Source: a virus
Reading direction: 5' to 3' (one strand)
IMG/VR virus record: IMGVR_UViG_3300014501_000001
Location: 1 to 64,000 of that record
Length of the DNA: 64,000 nt
The translations under genes and the position numbers were made by a program. The first letter of the stretch is position 1; each line of letters begins with the position of its first letter. The notes beneath the pieces were generated by a model that ran no database searches, was not told where the DNA came from, and was given only the letters and a program-made list of their open reading frames with translations. This document shows positions 30,080 through 49,337 of the stretch, one piece after another.

Positions 30080-31006
30080 TCAGTGCCTCCTGGCGGGGTC
30101 ACGATCGGCCTGCCACGCCGCCAGCGCATCGGTTCCCACCCTGGCGTAGATCAGCAGGCTCTTGACGTTCCTGTGGCCGCTCAGCGCCATCATCATCGCG
30201 GTCGACGCTCCCGCCTCCGCAGCGTCGGTAAGCGCCCGGTGGCGGATCTGGTGCAGCGTGTACGGGCCGCCGGGGAAGTCCCGGGTTGCCTTCATGAACG
30301 TGTCCTGCGCCTGCCTCGCTGACAGCCTTCCCCGGCCGTCAGGCGCAACGTCAGCGCGCGGCGTGCCTGCCGGTGCCTTCCGTGACGTGACGAACAGCGG
30401 GCCGCTCTTGCGCCCTTTCAGCAGCCGGGGAAGCGCCGACGCCGTGCCCGACTGCCACACGATCGCGGTAACGTCCGAGCCCTTCCTGACTACCCGTGCA
30501 CGGTGGTGCGGCAGGTCCAGGTCGGCGACGTCGAGCCGCAGCAGCTCCGATTCCCTCGCGGCGGTCTCCAGCATCATCCGCCAGAGCGCGCGCTCCCGCA
30601 GCGGGATCTTCTGGTCCGCCAGCAGCGCCTCGAGCACGTCCGCCGGGATTGCCCGGTCACGGTCCTCTGCTACCTTGCGCGGCGGGATGCCCCGTGCAAC
30701 CTCCGGGCCGGCCCATCCTTCCTGCCCGAAGTATGACCATGCGGACCGCAGGCATACGCGGGCCAGATTCCACGTCCTGGGAGCGCGATCCCCGGACGTG
30801 GCCTTCATCCACGCCGCGAGGTCGGCGGCGGTGACGGCCTGCACGTCCCTTTCCTCGCCGATGCCCTTTGCCATGCGCCCCAGGATCGAGCCGTACTGCT
30901 TCCTGGTTCCCGCGCTCTCGGGGTGGTCCAGGGTGGCCAGGTAGCAGGCCACGGCGTCCCAGAGCGGCATGCTGGTGCTGGGGACGGCATGCAGGGCGCG
31001 GGTCAT
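30080..31006 (-). CDS. Tyrosine recombinase/integrase
   Basis: Catalytic R (AARESE), K (VRKG), HQIRH, SGH and Y (LIYA). Confidence 0.9.
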   Translation of the reverse strand: MTRALHAVPSTSMPLWDAVACYLATLDHPESAGTRKQYGSILGRMAKGIGEERDVQAVTAADLAAWMKATSGDRAPRTWNLARVCLRSAWSYFGQEGWAGPEVARGIPPRKVAEDRDRAIPADVLEALLADQKIPLRERALWRMMLETAARESELLRLDVADLDLPHHRARVVRKGSDVTAIVWQSGTASALPRLLKGRKSGPLFVTSRKAPAGTPRADVAPDGRGRLSARQAQDTFMKATRDFPGGPYTLHQIRHRALTDAAEAGASTAMMMALSGHRNVKSLLIYARVGTDALAAWQADRDPARRH

Positions 31007-44795: not shown

Positions 44796-47700
44796 TTGGC
44801 ATCTCCGGCCGCCATTATCGCCGCAGCGAAAGCCGCGCGCAGTGCGCCTTCCGCAGGCCAGGGCGGCATGTCACCCGCTGTTGCCGCCATGAACGATAGC
44901 TGGGGCGGCATTTACGGGAACTTCCTTCCCCGGCCTGCCCAGGACTTCACGCAGGGCGCGTTCGGGCCGCTGACACCCCTCCCGCCGATGCCGGTCGATC
45001 AGCCGCCGCCGGGCTTTGACCGCCCGATGCCGCGACGCTGGCAACCGCCAATAGGCTGGAATTTGCCGCAGAGCCCTCCGGGTAGCGAGGGGCTGAAGCT
45101 CTGCGGCTTCGGCGAGTTGCGCACCCTGAGCCGGCTCTACAGTGTCGCCCGCGCGTGCATCCAGCTCTTGAAGTCCGAGATCCGCGCCCTGGAATGGGAC
45201 ATCGTGCCCACGAAGGACGCGGCGAAGGCCATGCGCGGCGACCACAAGGCCATGCGGGACTTCGGCGAGCGCCGGTCCGAGTGCATCCGGTTCTTCAAGA
45301 ACCCGGACCCGGAGTACGGGTCGTGGTCCTCGTGGCTGGACACGCTGCTGGAGGAAATCTACGCGATAGATGCGCTTAGCGTATTTTTGCGCCCTTCGCG
45401 TGTCCGGGGACGCGGGCTAATGGGATCGGACCTGTCAGCGCTTGAGCTGATAACAGGTGATTCGATTCGCCCGATGGTGGATCTTCATGGTTCACGCCCT
45501 ACGCCCCCATCTGTCGCTTTTCAGCAATTTTTGTATGGGGTGCCCCGCAGCGACCTCATGACCATCATGATGGGCGCCGACCTGACCGACGACCTCAAGG
45601 CCACCCAGGTCCATGAGTACCGGGGGGATCAGCTTCTGTACCTGCCTTACACAAGGCAGACGGACAGCCCCTATGGCTTCCCGCCGGCGGAGCAGGCGCT
45701 AGTCCCGGTGATGTCGGGGCTGTCCAAGCAGGGTTACCAGCTTGACTTCTTTCGTGAGGGTTCGGTACCTGCTGTATATATTTCGCCTGGGGATGCCGCT
45801 ATGACCGCATCTCAGGTGCGGGAGCTTCAGGATGCATTGAACGTTATTGCCGGAGATGTCGGGTTTAAGCATAAGGTCATAGTGCTGCCCCCCGGCAGTA
45901 AGCCGTACCCGCAGAAGGACCCGCAGCTAGCCGACCAGTTCGACATGGTCGTGTCTACCGAGGTCTGCATGGCCTATCAGGTGCAACCCACCGAACTTGG
46001 GCTAATGCCGCAAGTAGCCACCGTGCAAAGTCCGTCAAGTATGAACCAGGCAGCCAAGGCGGACGCCGCGCGCCACCAGCGCAAGTCCCTCGTCCCGATG
46101 CTCCAGTTCCTCAAGCAGGGCCTGCTGGACAAGGTCATCCAGGTTGCCTGCGGGCAGACGGACATGCAGTTCCTGTTCGAGGGCCTGGAAGAGGACGAGG
46201 ACGAGGTCTCCCTGACGGGCCTGCTGGGAACGCAGATCGGCACCGGCCTGCGGTCGGTGGACGAGGGCAGGGGCGTCCTGGGCCTGGACCCGTGGGGCCT
46301 GCCGGTCACCCAGGACCCGCTGTGGGCATCCGCGAACGGCGTCATGCTGCTGGGGTCGGTGGACCCGGCGACGGGCCAGCCGGGCGGCCAGCTGGCGGGG
46401 CTGCCGTCCGTGACGCAGCAGATGCAGGGCGCGCAGGGCGGTGCCGCAGGCTCGCCGGGCGCGAACGAGGGCCAGGTGAACGGCAAGCCCGCGCTCGCGC
46501 AGGGCCACCTGCCGGGCACCACGCATGTCCCCCCGGCTCAGCCGCAGCGGGACCCGACACCCTCGCATTCGGCGGCGATAGCGGGAGCGGCGGAAGCAGC
46601 GGCAGCGGTCTCGGGCTCGTCCTCGAAAGCGGCAACGGCAGGGCAGGACGGGCTGCACCGCTACGAGCCGTTCGTCCCCGGCGACCAGTCCGCGTGCGTG
46701 AAGTGCAGCCTGCCGCGCAGCTATGCCGCCCACGCAGTGACGGCGATCGGGTCGCGGATGATGCTGAAGGCCATCGCGGCACCCGTTGCGCCAAGGCCGC
46801 CGGATCATGTCCTCGCGGAGATCCTGACCGCCCCGGACGCTGCGTCGCTGAGCAAGGCCGCAGCAGCCGCGCTGATGCCTGCCCTGCCGGAAACCCCGGC
46901 CGTGTCGTCCAAGGCCGCGCTGAGCGAGCTGGATGCGCTGGGCAGGCACGTCCGCAAGGGCCGCGACCCCGCAACCTGGCAGCCGGTCCACATCCCCGGT
47001 CACGTCATGGCCATGATCTGCGAGGACGTGACGAAGGGCATAGCCATTGCGGAAGTGCTGACGGCGGCGGCTGACCAGATCCCAAAAGCCTCAGCCGCCA
47101 AGAGCGGCCCTAGCAGCGGTCAGCGGCGGCAGGCGTGGCTTGCCTGGGAGCATGACCTCCAGCTGGCGGCGAAGTACGAGAAGCAGATCGGGGCCGCTTT
47201 CGCGTCGGTGATGGCCGAGGCGGGCAGGCTGTTCGCCGCGTTCCTCGCCGGGACCCTCGCGGTCACTGCGGCGGTTCTGGCGTCGATGATCGCGGACCTG
47301 ATCCGGCAGCGGCTCGCGCTGATCCTGGCTCCCTTGCACGCGGAGGGCCGGGAACTGGGCGCGGCGGCGGCCATGCAGGCAGTAGGGGCGTCCGCACGGC
47401 AGCGGCAGGGGATAGCGGCGGCGCAGCAGGCGGACACGTCCCAGATCGCCCAGCAGGCCGCGGTAAGGCAGATGGCCGGCACCGGGCTCGCCGGGTTCAC
47501 CGTCGCGCTCATGAAGCTGCTCCTCGGCGGCGCGGTCACCGTTGGGGCGCTGCTGGCGCTGCTGGATGCGTTCCTTAACGCTGAGAACCGCGCCGGGCTG
47601 ATCGCCCTGACGGAGATCGAGAAGGCCATCGCGGACGGGGCCTTCGGGGTCTACACCGAGCTAGGCGTGAGTTACGTCCGCTGGCACACCCGTAACGACT

Positions 47701-49337
47701 CAAGGGTCTGCGCCCGCTGCATGGCCAACCAGGACGCCGGCCCGGTTCCGCTGGGGAGCCTGTTCCCCGGCGGGGTCGCCCAGCCGTGCCAGCATCCAGG
47801 ATGTCGTTGCTGGCTGGCTCCGAGCGATCCGCCGAAGCAGGGTGTTGCGCCTCCCGCGCCGGGGACTGCGAAGGCGGCCGGGGCTCCGCTGCTCTACCAA
47901 GGACCCGTCCATGGGGGCCCATTGAGCTACCCGCCAACCATGGATGGCGAGGCGGGACTCGAACCCGCAACCTACGGAACCCCGGCCGCAGTGCACCTTA
48001 CCAAGGCCGACAAACCCTGGAAGCACCCGGACACGTCTCTCCCTGTCGCTGAGCAGGTCTACGCGCAACTGCTGGAGGACTACCCCGCCTCGGCGCTGAC
48101 CTGGGTAAAGGACGCTACCTGGACCGGCCCGCAAGAGGTCCCGCTCAGCGCGATCGAGTACACCCCGGACAAGTGGCAGGCCGGCCACGAGGACGCCAAG
48201 GTCGATCGCTTCAAGGCCAAGATCGAGCGCCGGCAGGCGGCAGGCAAGCCGGTCAAGCCGGCCGTCCTCATCGACCGGCCGGACACGAAGCCGGGAACGC
48301 ACCTGATCGTGATCGACGGCCACCACCGCACGATGGCCTTCCATGAACTGAATCGTCCCGTCGTCGCCTACGTCGGCAAGGTCACCACAGCAGGAGCGAG
48401 TGCGGCAGAGGAAACTCACGCCTCGCAGTTCAGCGACCGGAAGCCGGGCGCGGGCGACGACGGGCGCACCATGAAGAACTTCACGGCGGCGAACCTCGGC
48501 GACGGCTCGGTGCACGGCCTCGCGCCGTATGACCTGCGGGGCCAGGACGACGGCTGCGGCTGCTGCGCGGAGTGCAGCGGCCCGTCGTGCGGCTGCTGCC
48601 CGGACTGCGATGCGGCCAAGGCGGCACGCGGCTACAGCCTGAACCCGCGCTCGGGCATGATCTCCCTGGACCTGCCGGAAGGGCTGATCGAGCCCCTGCC
48701 AGGCGGGGTCACGGATCACCATGTGACCGTGGTTTACCTCGGGCCTGACGTGGATGACGACGCATTCAGCGCCGCGTGCGGCATGGCACGCGAGGTCGCG
48801 GCGGCCACGCAGCCGCTGTCCGGGACCATCGGCGGCATCGGCTCGTTCCCTGCCGGTGATGACGGGGTTCCGGTCTGGGCCGGCGTGAACCTGCCCGGTG
48901 CCGAGACACTGCACGAGGCGCTGGCTGAACTTCAGTCACCGGACGCGAAGGCCCGCGAGCACGGCTACAAGCCGCACTGCACCATCGCGTACCTCGAAGA
49001 GGGCGACCCGCTGCCGGATCCGCTGCCCCACATGCCGGTGACATTCACTCACCTGTCGGTACATCGCGGCGAGGACGTGAAGCGGTTCTCGTTCGGTGGC
49101 GGCTCAGCGGAGAAGTCAGGCAAGACCAGCGCCGAGATCCTCCGCGAGTACTGGACCCATGAAGGGCACCCCGGCCCCACGCAGTACGCCCTGGAAGAGA
49201 AGATCCGCTGGGGCGAGAAAGACGACTGGTACCGCTGCGTGGACGAGCTAACGCCCTACATCGGCGAGGGTGCGCGTGGCTATTGCACGCTCAGGCACCA
49301 CGAGGTCCTGGGTGCCTGGCCCGGACATCCGGTCTGA
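44796..49337 (+). CDS. Portal polyprotein: portal + Mu gpF-like head domain + ParB/Srx-like + 2H phosphoesterase + C-terminal KIRWG domain
   Basis: Portal motifs SPYGFPPAEQ, FFREGSVP, VDEGRGVLGL; gpF WHTRNDSRVCARC...QHPGCRCW; VIDGHHR; HVTV...HCTI. Confidence 0.85.
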   Translation: MASPAAIIAAAKAARSAPSAGQGGMSPAVAAMNDSWGGIYGNFLPRPAQDFTQGAFGPLTPLPPMPVDQPPPGFDRPMPRRWQPPIGWNLPQSPPGSEGLKLCGFGELRTLSRLYSVARACIQLLKSEIRALEWDIVPTKDAAKAMRGDHKAMRDFGERRSECIRFFKNPDPEYGSWSSWLDTLLEEIYAIDALSVFLRPSRVRGRGLMGSDLSALELITGDSIRPMVDLHGSRPTPPSVAFQQFLYGVPRSDLMTIMMGADLTDDLKATQVHEYRGDQLLYLPYTRQTDSPYGFPPAEQALVPVMSGLSKQGYQLDFFREGSVPAVYISPGDAAMTASQVRELQDALNVIAGDVGFKHKVIVLPPGSKPYPQKDPQLADQFDMVVSTEVCMAYQVQPTELGLMPQVATVQSPSSMNQAAKADAARHQRKSLVPMLQFLKQGLLDKVIQVACGQTDMQFLFEGLEEDEDEVSLTGLLGTQIGTGLRSVDEGRGVLGLDPWGLPVTQDPLWASANGVMLLGSVDPATGQPGGQLAGLPSVTQQMQGAQGGAAGSPGANEGQVNGKPALAQGHLPGTTHVPPAQPQRDPTPSHSAAIAGAAEAAAAVSGSSSKAATAGQDGLHRYEPFVPGDQSACVKCSLPRSYAAHAVTAIGSRMMLKAIAAPVAPRPPDHVLAEILTAPDAASLSKAAAAALMPALPETPAVSSKAALSELDALGRHVRKGRDPATWQPVHIPGHVMAMICEDVTKGIAIAEVLTAAADQIPKASAAKSGPSSGQRRQAWLAWEHDLQLAAKYEKQIGAAFASVMAEAGRLFAAFLAGTLAVTAAVLASMIADLIRQRLALILAPLHAEGRELGAAAAMQAVGASARQRQGIAAAQQADTSQIAQQAAVRQMAGTGLAGFTVALMKLLLGGAVTVGALLALLDAFLNAENRAGLIALTEIEKAIADGAFGVYTELGVSYVRWHTRNDSRVCARCMANQDAGPVPLGSLFPGGVAQPCQHPGCRCWLAPSDPPKQGVAPPAPGTAKAAGAPLLYQGPVHGGPLSYPPTMDGEAGLEPATYGTPAAVHLTKADKPWKHPDTSLPVAEQVYAQLLEDYPASALTWVKDATWTGPQEVPLSAIEYTPDKWQAGHEDAKVDRFKAKIERRQAAGKPVKPAVLIDRPDTKPGTHLIVIDGHHRTMAFHELNRPVVAYVGKVTTAGASAAEETHASQFSDRKPGAGDDGRTMKNFTAANLGDGSVHGLAPYDLRGQDDGCGCCAECSGPSCGCCPDCDAAKAARGYSLNPRSGMISLDLPEGLIEPLPGGVTDHHVTVVYLGPDVDDDAFSAACGMAREVAAATQPLSGTIGGIGSFPAGDDGVPVWAGVNLPGAETLHEALAELQSPDAKAREHGYKPHCTIAYLEEGDPLPDPLPHMPVTFTHLSVHRGEDVKRFSFGGGSAEKSGKTSAEILREYWTHEGHPGPTQYALEEKIRWGEKDDWYRCVDELTPYIGEGARGYCTLRHHEVLGAWPGHPV
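47874..47989 (-). ncRNA. Circularly permuted tRNA-like (YrlA-like topology) element antisense within the portal gene
   Basis: 16-bp closing stem; T arm GCGGG-UUCGAGU-CCCGC; acceptor CUCGCCA/UGGCGGG closed by UCCAUGGU; D arm UAGCUCA...UGGUAGAGCA. Confidence 0.75.

What the first reader, a model, noticed from the sequence alone, without database searches (positions are those of the whole stretch)
47874..47989. Circularly permuted tRNA mimic with complementary loops hidden antisense in the portal gene
Seen on the - strand: GCGGCCGGGGUUCCGU AGGUU GCGGG-UUCGAGU-CCCGC CUCGCCA UCCAUGGU UGGCGGG UA GCUC AAU[GGGCCC-CCAUGGAC-GGGUCC]UUGGUA GAGC A GCGGAGCCCCGGCCGC. The tRNA 3' half precedes the 5' half, the acceptor stem is closed by a CCA-containing loop, and the anticodon arm becomes an open 16-bp stem. 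G-U pairs favour the - strand. Known: this topology is that of bacterial YrlA Y RNAs, but no Ro60/TROVE gene is in the window and I see no GNCGAA Ro-binding motif. The acceptor loop UCCAUGG is exactly complementary to the loop of a hairpin inserted in the D loop (CCAUGGA), which suggests kissing-loop oligomerisation reminiscent of phi29 pRNA (speculative). The element sits in frame in the linker between the gpF and ParB-like domains.
Basis: partly seen in the sequence, partly recalled or inferred. Interest (0 to 1): 0.88.

Follow-up and report, generated by a model that had tools for sequence, protein, structure and literature searches.

The report
Antisense tRNA mimic inside portal gene
A 128-base "inside-out tRNA" of the known YrlA type really is written backwards inside a phage's portal gene, where the protein frame reads it as a floppy spacer. 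It has no Ro60 partner gene, it recently jumped between two phages, and whether it is made as an RNA is still untested.

Summary
It matches Rfam YrlA at 48.2 bits (E 1e-9), the same range as genuine Ro60-linked phage YrlAs (38-50 bits). After in-silico re-permutation it reads as a textbook 77-nt tRNA with an encoded CCA. It lies in frame in a length-variable linker of a 1513-aa portal / MuF / ParB-like / 2H polyprotein; relatives have a short or a different linker.

Both phages that carry it are complete genomes without a Ro60 gene, and the GNCGAA Ro-binding motif is absent. The two genomes are about 85% identical where they align. Their only long identical run (795 nt; the next longest is 160 nt) surrounds the element, so it was exchanged very recently. 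A rare extended -10 box (TGGTAAGGT) sits at the insertion junction, placed to start transcription at the base of the stem.

My best reading (about 0.4) is an expressed, Ro60-independent antisense tRNA mimic that RNase P cuts as it cuts M. smegmatis YrlA. The main rival (about 0.3) is a recently acquired passenger tolerated as a linker. The 7-nt loop complementarity is real (p about 7e-4), but both loops hold the palindrome CCAUGG, and nothing supports a phi29 pRNA-like role. There are no expression data and no covariation. Earlier notes of this scan report orphan YrlA-type mimics in other phages.

The parts
47865..47992 (-). Whole tRNA-mimic element (128 nt), YrlA-type permuted order: stem 5' strand, variable loop, T arm, closed acceptor stem, D arm, stem 3' strand
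   Evidence: Rfam YrlA full-length match at 48.2 bits; fold z -5.2; part coordinates; alignable flanks of variant contigs end at 47864/47870 and 47993/47998
47974..47989 (-). 5' strand of the 16-bp stem that replaces the anticodon arm (its inner 5 bp correspond to the tRNA anticodon stem)
   Evidence: inverted repeat I2
47874..47889 (-). 3' strand of the 16-bp stem
47969..47973 (-). Variable loop AGGUU; U48 can form the Levitt pair with A15
   Evidence: sequence reading on the coordinates; the A15:U48 / G15:C48 rule is from PMC4201824
47952..47968 (-). T arm GCGGG-UUCGAGU-CCCGC with a canonical T loop
47930..47951 (-). 7-bp acceptor stem closed by the loop U-CCA-UGGU (47937-47944). RNase P is predicted to cut between U47937 and U47936
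   Evidence: the cleavage site is inferred from M. smegmatis YrlA (PMC4201824)
47891..47929 (-). U8-A9 and the D arm GCUC / GAGC. The D loop AAU...UUGGUA is interrupted at position 16/17 by a 20-nt hairpin (47901-47920) with loop CCAUGGAC
47995..48003 (-). Extended -10-like box TGGTAAGGT at the insertion junction; it would place a transcription start at about 47989-47987
   Evidence: only 17 such motifs on both strands of the 113-kb genome; the consensus sigma-70 scan found nothing; the other long linker allele (L037) has TGGTAATCT and the short alleles have GGTGAC / GGTCAC
44796..49337 (+). Host gene: 1513-aa portal / MuF / ParB-like / 2H-phosphoesterase polyprotein. The insert adds about 43 residues to the linker between HPGCRC and KPWKH (72 residues in all); the 16-bp-stem core 47874-47989 covers about residues 1027-1065
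   Evidence: GC3 0.83
47451..48245 (.). 795-nt tract identical to sister phage G001, with the element inside it

Best explanation
The element is a YrlA-class tRNA-mimic RNA module whose sense strand is the minus strand.

SHOWN:
- It has the full tRNA core (T arm, 7-bp acceptor stem, D arm, variable loop and the nucleotides for the tRNA tertiary pairs). The halves are in permuted order and sit on a 16-bp stem instead of an anticodon arm.
- It occupies a length-variable inter-domain linker of the portal polyprotein gene and is read through in frame on the plus strand.
- It is absent from, or replaced in, relatives.
- It was exchanged very recently between two otherwise diverged phages.

INFERRED:
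- Host RNA polymerase transcribes it from the junction-formed extended -10 box, starting at the base of the stem.
- The RNA folds into an L-shaped tRNA mimic. RNase P cuts 5' of the acceptor strand (-1 U, 7-bp stem, UCCA present), and trimming exposes the encoded CCA, as shown for M. smegmatis YrlA. This gives a two-piece, anticodon-less, CCA-ended tRNA look-alike.
- It has no Ro60-docking motif and the phage has no Ro60, so it probably acts without Ro60, as a decoy or substrate for a tRNA-binding factor (host tRNA-targeting defence or tRNA-repair enzymes).
- The palindromic CCAUGG loops may let molecules pair with each other.

My odds: the identity claim about 0.9; lateral acquisition and recent exchange about 0.85; expression and function as an RNA about 0.4, which is the figure given below.
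For: - Anatomy and family match. The score equals that of genuine Ro60-linked phage YrlAs (38-50 bits).
- Strand: G-U pairs, the T-loop and D-loop consensus and the CCA fit only the minus strand.
- RNase P / CCA precedent for a 7-bp acceptor stem: PMC4201824.
- Promoter-like box: 17 per 226 kb of both strands, and one lies 3 nt upstream of the element on the correct strand, roughly a 0.2% chance for a 30-nt target (my arithmetic from the count). 11 of the 17 lie outside GC3-supported ORFs that cover 66% of the genome.
- Spread: the only exact run of 250 nt or more between two genomes of about 85% identity is 47451-48245. Identical element contigs occur in lake-water runs of other studies. This fits a tract that is favoured or driven.
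- The linker has not taken on the gene's codon bias: GC3 0.72 against 0.83 for the gene and 0.81-0.88 for the short linker alleles.
Against: - No transcript evidence of any kind, and no terminator-like site.
- All known copies are identical, so there is no covariation and no test of purifying selection.
- The location, antisense inside a strongly expressed late structural operon, is unusual for an RNA gene.
- The promoter box was found after the fact and is partly built from conserved Thr-Lys codons.
- The other long linker allele at the same site (L037 / L039) is unstructured (z 0.35). Inserts at this site can therefore be plain linker.
- The phage's CCA-adding / repair enzyme is absent from the sister phage that carries the identical element, so no partner gene co-occurs with it.
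Confidence: 0.4

Rival explanations
1. Passenger or fossil. A YrlA or tRNA-like gene fragment from another phage or host was inserted by illegitimate or RNA-mediated recombination into a permissive, disordered linker. It survives only because it is in frame and stop-free. It looks perfect because it is young, and it has no RNA function here.
For: - It is found only in one narrow lineage.
- All copies are identical.
- Two of the three plus-strand frames are open, so in-frame survival is cheap.
- The linker length varies from 27 to 75 residues among homologs.
- The element-coded peptide has the lowest pLDDT and no secondary structure, in an admittedly poor model.
- The L037-type allele at the same site is unstructured.
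- There is no Ro60 gene, no Ro motif and no co-occurring partner.
Against: - The insert borders coincide with the base of the RNA structure.
- A rare promoter-like box sits exactly at the junction.
- The only long identical tract between the two genomes carries the element, which is more than neutrality predicts.
- No donor was found: the exact 21-nt T-arm-plus-acceptor word is absent from 185,579 species genomes, and the 18-nt acceptor stem-loop word occurs in no other IMG/VR record.
Confidence: 0.3
2. Classical Y RNA working with the host's own Ro60 (Rsr). The phage supplies only the RNA, which tethers host Ro60 to an effector such as PNPase.
For: The Rfam YrlA full-length alignment includes an outer helix with an asymmetric internal loop where YrlA has its Ro-binding stem. 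Many actinobacteria encode Rsr (PMC4201824).
Against: The GNCGAAN0-1G motif is absent: the aligned positions read UGCGG-. The stem can instead form 16 uninterrupted pairs. The defining linkage to a Ro60 gene within 4 kb is not met in either complete phage genome. The host is unknown.
Confidence: 0.07
3. The selected feature is not the minus-strand RNA. It could be a structured stretch in the plus-strand mRNA (ribosome pausing or partial termination between the portal-MuF and cargo domains). It could be the extra 43-residue spacer itself. Or it could be a DNA-level recombination or mobility site whose inverted ends drive its spread.
For: The plus strand is also unusually stable (z -3.8 and z -2.7). 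The element sits exactly at a domain junction in a family whose C-terminal cargo is swapped between 2H and NUDIX. The co-converted flanks resemble homing tracts.
Against: Every tRNA-specific feature (T loop, D loop, CCA, G-U pairs) is meaningful only on the minus strand. The element is single-copy, with no other copy of its ends in the window and no second YrlA-like match in the genome. No endonuclease gene lies in or beside the tract.
Confidence: 0.1
4. phi29 pRNA-like packaging RNA that forms rings on the portal through kissing loops.
For: The 7-nt inter-loop complementarity is unlikely by chance (p about 7e-4). The gene location is suggestive.
Against: Both loops carry the same palindrome, so pairing is not directional. 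No pRNA family match at E<=10. The acceptor loop is the predicted RNase P site. From my own knowledge, pRNA is known only in phi29-like phages; this is an unrelated 113-kb high-GC phage with direct terminal repeats, and relatives with the same portal lack the element.
Confidence: 0.03

Closest known systems
YrlA (Y RNA-like A, Rfam RF02553), especially M. smegmatis YrlA and the YrlAs of Ro60-encoding mycobacteriophages (Chen et al. 2014, PMC4201824; Wang et al. 2018, bioRxiv 10.1101/312249)
   Same: Permuted order (T arm, closed acceptor-like stem, D arm) on a terminal stem, with the tRNA tertiary-pair nucleotides. Like M. smegmatis YrlA it has a 7-bp acceptor stem, the determinant of RNase P cleavage and of a CCA end. 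The CM score is in the range of genuine phage YrlAs.
   Different: No GNCGAA / Ro60-docking module. No Ro60 gene in the phage. The full CCA is encoded inside the loop. A 20-nt hairpin is inserted in the D loop. It is nested antisense and in frame inside a structural protein gene instead of lying upstream of rsr.
Circularly permuted tRNA genes of Cyanidioschyzon merolae and some other algae and archaea (my own knowledge)
   Same: The 3' half precedes the 5' half, and the acceptor ends are joined by a short intervening loop.
   Different: Those mature into complete tRNAs with an anticodon. Here the anticodon loop is replaced by 11 further base pairs, so no decoding tRNA can result.
Two-piece (permuted) tmRNA genes of alpha-proteobacteria and cyanobacteria (my own knowledge)
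   Same: A permuted gene whose CCA-ending acceptor piece comes first and whose loop is excised to give a two-piece RNA.
   Different: The element has no tag reading frame and no pseudoknots, and it has a full D arm. ARAGORN's tmRNA search is negative.
phi29 pRNA (my own knowledge)
   Same: A small phage RNA with two loops able to pair between molecules.
   Different: pRNA loops are non-palindromic and give directional ring assembly. There is no sequence or structure match, the phage type is unrelated, and the element is dispensable in relatives.
Rickettsia palindromic elements, i.e. structured repeats inserted in frame in protein genes (Ogata et al. 2000; my own knowledge)
   Same: A hairpin-ended element of about 100-150 nt inserted in frame and tolerated as extra peptide in a protein.
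   Different: Those elements are multi-copy repeats without tRNA likeness. This one is single-copy.
Co-conversion tracts around homing introns and inteins in phages (my own knowledge)
   Same: An insertion flanked by stretches identical between otherwise diverged genomes.
   Different: No ribozyme, intein or endonuclease is associated. 128 nt is not a multiple of 3, and the element is translated, not spliced.

Membership tests
YrlA (RF02553) | tRNA-like module in permuted order (T arm, closed acceptor-like stem, D arm) on a terminal stem | tested here: met
   Full-length CM alignment, MFE structure, canonical cloverleaf after re-permutation
YrlA (RF02553) | Nucleotides for the tRNA tertiary pairs (U8:A14, 15:48 Levitt pair, G18/G19 with U55/C56, U54:A58, G53:C61) | tested here: met
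   Read from the sequence on the coordinates: U8, A14, A15:U48, GG in the D loop, UUCGAGU T loop. The rule is from PMC4201824 and 10.1101/312249
YrlA (RF02553) | GNCGAAN0-1G motif / bulged Ro60-binding stem near the 5' end | tested here: not met
   No GNCGAA within 47800-48120(-). The aligned positions read ACUGCGG with the internal-loop columns deleted
YrlA (RF02553) | Encoded within about 4 kb of, and on the same strand as, a Ro60/TROVE gene | tested here: not met
   No PF05731 match in the complete 113-kb genome or in the complete sister genome G001. The controls L012, L019 and L021 do have TROVE
YrlA (RF02553) | Rfam gathering score of 69 bits | tested here: not met
   48.2 bits. Ro60-linked phage YrlAs also score only 38-45 bits (L005, TROVE not checked, 50), so the threshold does not discriminate for phage YrlAs
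YrlA (RF02553) | Expressed RNA bound by Ro60 | not testable with these tools
   No RNA run is listed for this DNA
tRNA | Anticodon arm with a 7-nt loop, in standard gene order | tested here: not met
   ARAGORN finds 0 genes. Rfam tRNA gives only 16 bits on a partial alternative alignment
Permuted tRNA gene (C. merolae type) | Re-joining the halves yields a complete decoding tRNA | tested here: not met
   A cloverleaf appears only when a dummy anticodon loop is supplied and the D hairpin is removed
phi29 pRNA | Match to the pRNA family, and directional complementary loops | tested here: not met
   No pRNA hit at E<=10. The loops are complementary over 7 nt, but both are palindromic
tmRNA (two-piece) | tRNA-like domain plus a tag reading frame | tested here: not met
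   ARAGORN's tmRNA search is negative
In-frame palindromic repeat elements (RPE / MITE-like) | Multiple dispersed copies in the genome | tested here: not met
   One YrlA-like match in the genome. The terminal 18-mer has no other copy in the window at up to 3 mismatches, apart from its own partner arm

The most novel reading that the evidence does not exclude
A Ro60-independent tRNA-mimic small RNA is expressed antisense from within the portal polyprotein gene, so that one DNA stretch encodes both a protein spacer and a structured RNA. It is processed by RNase P to a CCA-ended two-piece molecule, self-associates through its two palindromic CCAUGG loops, gives an advantage (for example as a decoy against tRNA-directed host defence), and for that reason sweeps between phage lineages by recombination.
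Probability: 0.15. Interest if true: 0.8.

Novelty: new variant of a known kind. Interest (0 to 1): 0.5.

Why it matters
YrlA-type tRNA mimics are known only as partners of Ro60, and what their tRNA-like half does is still open. An orphan copy reduced to the tRNA-like half would point to a Ro60-independent job for that half. This copy carries an encoded CCA and a 7-bp acceptor stem, and it spreads between phages.

It would also be a clear case of a structured RNA gene and a protein linker sharing the same bases on opposite strands. If instead it is a passenger, it still documents how tRNA-like modules are captured into coding sequence at domain junctions of modular phage proteins.

Tried and rejected
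- RNA evidence: no RNA holder is listed for this DNA, so expression could not be examined.
- Cultured-phage collection: no protein or DNA relative, only a generic T-arm match to a tRNA-Asn.
- A protein search for short fragments carrying the linker found nothing.
- The metagenome scan gave only three loci, all with short linkers.
- The exact 21-nt T-arm-plus-acceptor word is absent from 185,579 species genomes.
- The second genome scan found only a distant MuF relative in Kitasatospora humi, which ends right after the CRC motif. This is a weak host hint only.
- Homology between the YrlA-type linker and the L037-type linker: the whole-segment alignment beats shuffles only marginally (21 of 500) and the interior does not (67 of 500). 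The L037-type segment is not unusually structured (z 0.35). I leave this undecided and drop the idea that its terminal stem shows covariation.
- MITE or repeat hypothesis: rejected, because the element is single-copy.
- A link to the phage's CCA-adding / repair enzyme and RlaP: not supported as a rule, because the sister phage with the identical element lacks PF01743.
- RtcB is absent.
- The consensus sigma-70 and terminator scans found nothing.
- ParB assignment: Pfam and PDB sequence searches were negative. Only PHROGs gives a weak ParB-like hit, E 1.6e-4.
- The AlphaFold model of residues 900-1300 was poor (pLDDT 44.6). It is used only as a weak hint that the linker is disordered, and no fold search was run on it.
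- The read laying joints that skip 127-128 nt cannot be precise deletions, because they would shift the frame. I read them as replacement alleles whose alignable flanks end at the element's borders.
Full report
**What is there.** RNAfold gives the drawn structure:
- a 16-bp stem;
- a 5-nt variable loop;
- the T arm GCGGG-UUCGAGU-CCCGC;
- a 7-bp acceptor stem closed by UCCAUGGU;
- U8-A9;
- a D arm whose loop carries a 20-nt hairpin.

The energy is -72.3 kcal/mol, z -5.2. The plus strand is weaker, at -59.7 kcal/mol and z -3.8, because four G-U pairs of the drawn structure become A-C there. The T loop, the D loop and the CCA make sense only on the minus strand.

Rfam's YrlA model aligns over its whole length to 47862-47992(-) at 48.2 bits, E 1e-9 (4.5e-11 genome-wide). 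ARAGORN sees no tRNA or tmRNA. When the halves are re-joined in silico with a dummy anticodon loop and the D hairpin is removed, it calls a textbook 77-nt tRNA with U73-CCA. The nucleotides behind the tRNA tertiary pairs (U8:A14, A15:U48, G18/G19, U54:A58, G53:C61) are all present, and the extra hairpin sits at D-loop position 16/17. From my own knowledge, that is the length-variable part of the D loop.

**Gene context.** The element lies inside ORF 44796-49337(+), which has the high-GC codon signature of a real gene (GC3 0.83). The domains are:
- Phage_portal, residues 117-496;
- Mu F-like / head morphogenesis, about 931-1007;
- a weakly ParB-like segment (PHROG E 1.6e-4; Pfam and PDB negative);
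- a 2H / LigT-like phosphoesterase, residues 1309-1413.

The 16-bp-stem core covers about residues 1027-1065. Homologs show that the stretch between the motifs HPxCRC and KPWKH is a variable linker:
- 23-32 residues in L036, L038, L115 and L117;
- 66 residues of unrelated-looking, unstructured sequence in L037 and L039;
- 75 residues in the window phage and its sister L035 / G001.

None of the other relatives has a YrlA-like match in this gene. The structural genes around it are all on the plus strand, so the RNA sense is antisense to a late operon. The poor structure model gives its lowest confidence, and no secondary structure, over the element-coded peptide.

**Comparison with YrlA.** Chen et al. 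2014 (PMC4201824) define YrlA by three things: a tRNA-like module, a GNCGAAN0-1G motif, and a position within 4 kb of Ro60 on the same strand.
- The first feature is met.
- The motif is absent.
- Neither complete element-bearing genome has a TROVE gene.

The score is below Rfam's gathering value of 69. However, genuine phage YrlAs in records that do hold TROVE score only 38-45 bits, and a further one (L005, TROVE not checked) scores 50. The threshold therefore says little here.

The same paper shows that M. smegmatis YrlA is cut by RNase P and carries CCA in vivo. It was the only YrlA tested with a 7-bp acceptor stem. The present element has the 7-bp stem, a U at position -1 and the complete UCCA already encoded. 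The same processing is the natural prediction, but it is an inference. The S. Typhimurium YrlA structure lacks a free CCA end (10.1101/312249).

**Evidence on history.** The window phage and G001 are both complete genomes with terminal repeats. They align over 42.9 kb at a mean identity of 85%. The only exact run of 250 nt or more is 47451-48245 (795 nt), and the next longest is 160 nt. The element lies inside that tract.

Contigs from lake-water metagenomes of other studies hold the element without any difference over 370-396 nt. Other contigs from the same runs match the flanks, but only up to 47864/47870 and from 47993/47998 onward. These cannot be clean deletions, because the frame would shift. 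I read them as alternative linker alleles.

So the insert is polymorphic in nature, its borders coincide with the base of the RNA structure, and it has recently moved between lineages with co-converted flanks. No donor was found in 185,579 species genomes or in IMG/VR. The element is single-copy.

**Evidence on expression.** There is none directly, because no RNA run is listed. The one indirect hint is the box TGGTAAGGT at 48003-47995(-), three bases upstream of the element.
- The motif TGNTANNNT occurs 17 times on both strands of the 113-kb genome.
- 11 of those lie outside GC3-supported ORFs that cover 66% of the genome. Base composition confounds this.
- The box is formed at the insertion junction and uses a rare T-ending Leu codon. 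The other long allele has TGGTAATCT, and the short alleles have GGTGAC or GGTCAC.
- It was noticed after the fact and is partly built from conserved Thr-Lys codons. The standard two-hexamer scan found nothing.

**Loops.** The 7-nt complementarity between the acceptor loop and the D-hairpin loop is unlikely by chance (0.07% of random loop pairs). Both loops contain the palindrome CCAUGG, so each can also pair with itself. This permits dimers or chains but not the directional ring of phi29 pRNA. No pRNA match exists. The acceptor loop would also be destroyed by the predicted RNase P cut. In passing, I saw phage tRNA genes elsewhere with D-loop hairpins whose loops hold another palindrome, CAUAUG. 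Such hairpins may therefore be a wider theme.

**Weighing.**
- For a working RNA: the exact coincidence of insert borders with the RNA structure, the junction promoter box, the lack of codon-bias amelioration (linker GC3 0.72), and the fact that the only recent exchange between the two genomes carries this element.
- Against: no transcript, no covariation, an awkward antisense location in a late operon, no partner gene that co-occurs (the CCA-adding / repair enzyme and RlaP of this phage are missing from G001), and an unstructured alternative insert at the same site.

I put an expressed, Ro60-independent tRNA mimic at about 0.4. A young passenger is about 0.3, other selected features (mRNA, peptide or DNA level) about 0.1, a host-Ro60 tether about 0.07 and a pRNA-like role about 0.03.

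**Novelty.** YrlA-type mimics in phages are published, so the kind is known. What is new is the combination: no Ro60, no docking motif, encoded CCA, a D-loop hairpin, and above all nesting antisense and in frame within a structural polyprotein gene, with signs of recent spread. Earlier unchecked notes of this scan report orphan YrlA-type mimics and a D-loop-hairpin variant in other phages. That fits a broader, undescribed Ro60-independent class, but it is not independent evidence.

Noticed in passing
same genome, beyond the window: 89827-90510(-) and 90507-91730(-) (L145:1828-2511 and L145:2508-3659): An RlaP-family nucleotidyltransferase (PF10127) lies next to a CCA-adding / repair enzyme (PolyA_pol head + HD; NF008137, E 1e-45), in a phage for which ARAGORN finds no tRNA gene. 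With the 2H domain of the portal polyprotein this looks like a tRNA-end repair kit. The sister phage G001 lacks the CCA enzyme.
   Followed up: partly
window 47451-48245: This is the only long (795 nt) tract identical between two 113-115-kb phage genomes that are otherwise about 85% identical where alignable. The next longest exact run is 160 nt.
   Followed up: yes
L119, L121, L123, L124, L129, L130, L134-L137 (IMG/VR loci; matches listed): Ordinary, non-permuted phage tRNA genes carry 20-27-nt hairpins inserted in the D loop. In six of them the hairpin loop holds the palindrome CAUAUG, as the present element holds CCAUGG.
   Followed up: no
L031:2230-2466: Downstream of a large-terminase gene lies a tRNA (Rfam 58 bits) with a 26-nt D-loop insert that ARAGORN misses. 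A YrlA-like element (40 bits) follows it. No TROVE gene is present in this 7.7-kb fragment.
   Followed up: partly
L044:1019-1080 (-): A weak YrlA-like permuted tRNA module (26 bits, 7-bp acceptor-like stem) lies about 200 nt upstream of, and antisense to, a distantly related portal-MuF fusion gene. A second T-arm-like piece follows it.
   Followed up: partly
window 44796-49337 and homologs P0003-P0014: The C-terminal cargo of this portal-MuF(-ParB-like) family swaps between a 2H / LigT phosphoesterase and a NUDIX hydrolase. This is typical of modular, virion-delivered MuF cargo.
   Followed up: no
window about 48549-48622: A Cys-rich 21-residue insert (DGCGCCAECSGPSCGCCPDCD) lies before the 2H domain. 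It is absent from the sister phage, where 10 other bases replace 73.
   Followed up: no
same genome: 88503-89006(+) and window 30137-30643(-): Two tyrosine-recombinase (Phage_integrase) genes in a phage with direct terminal repeats. Neither is near the element.
   Followed up: no
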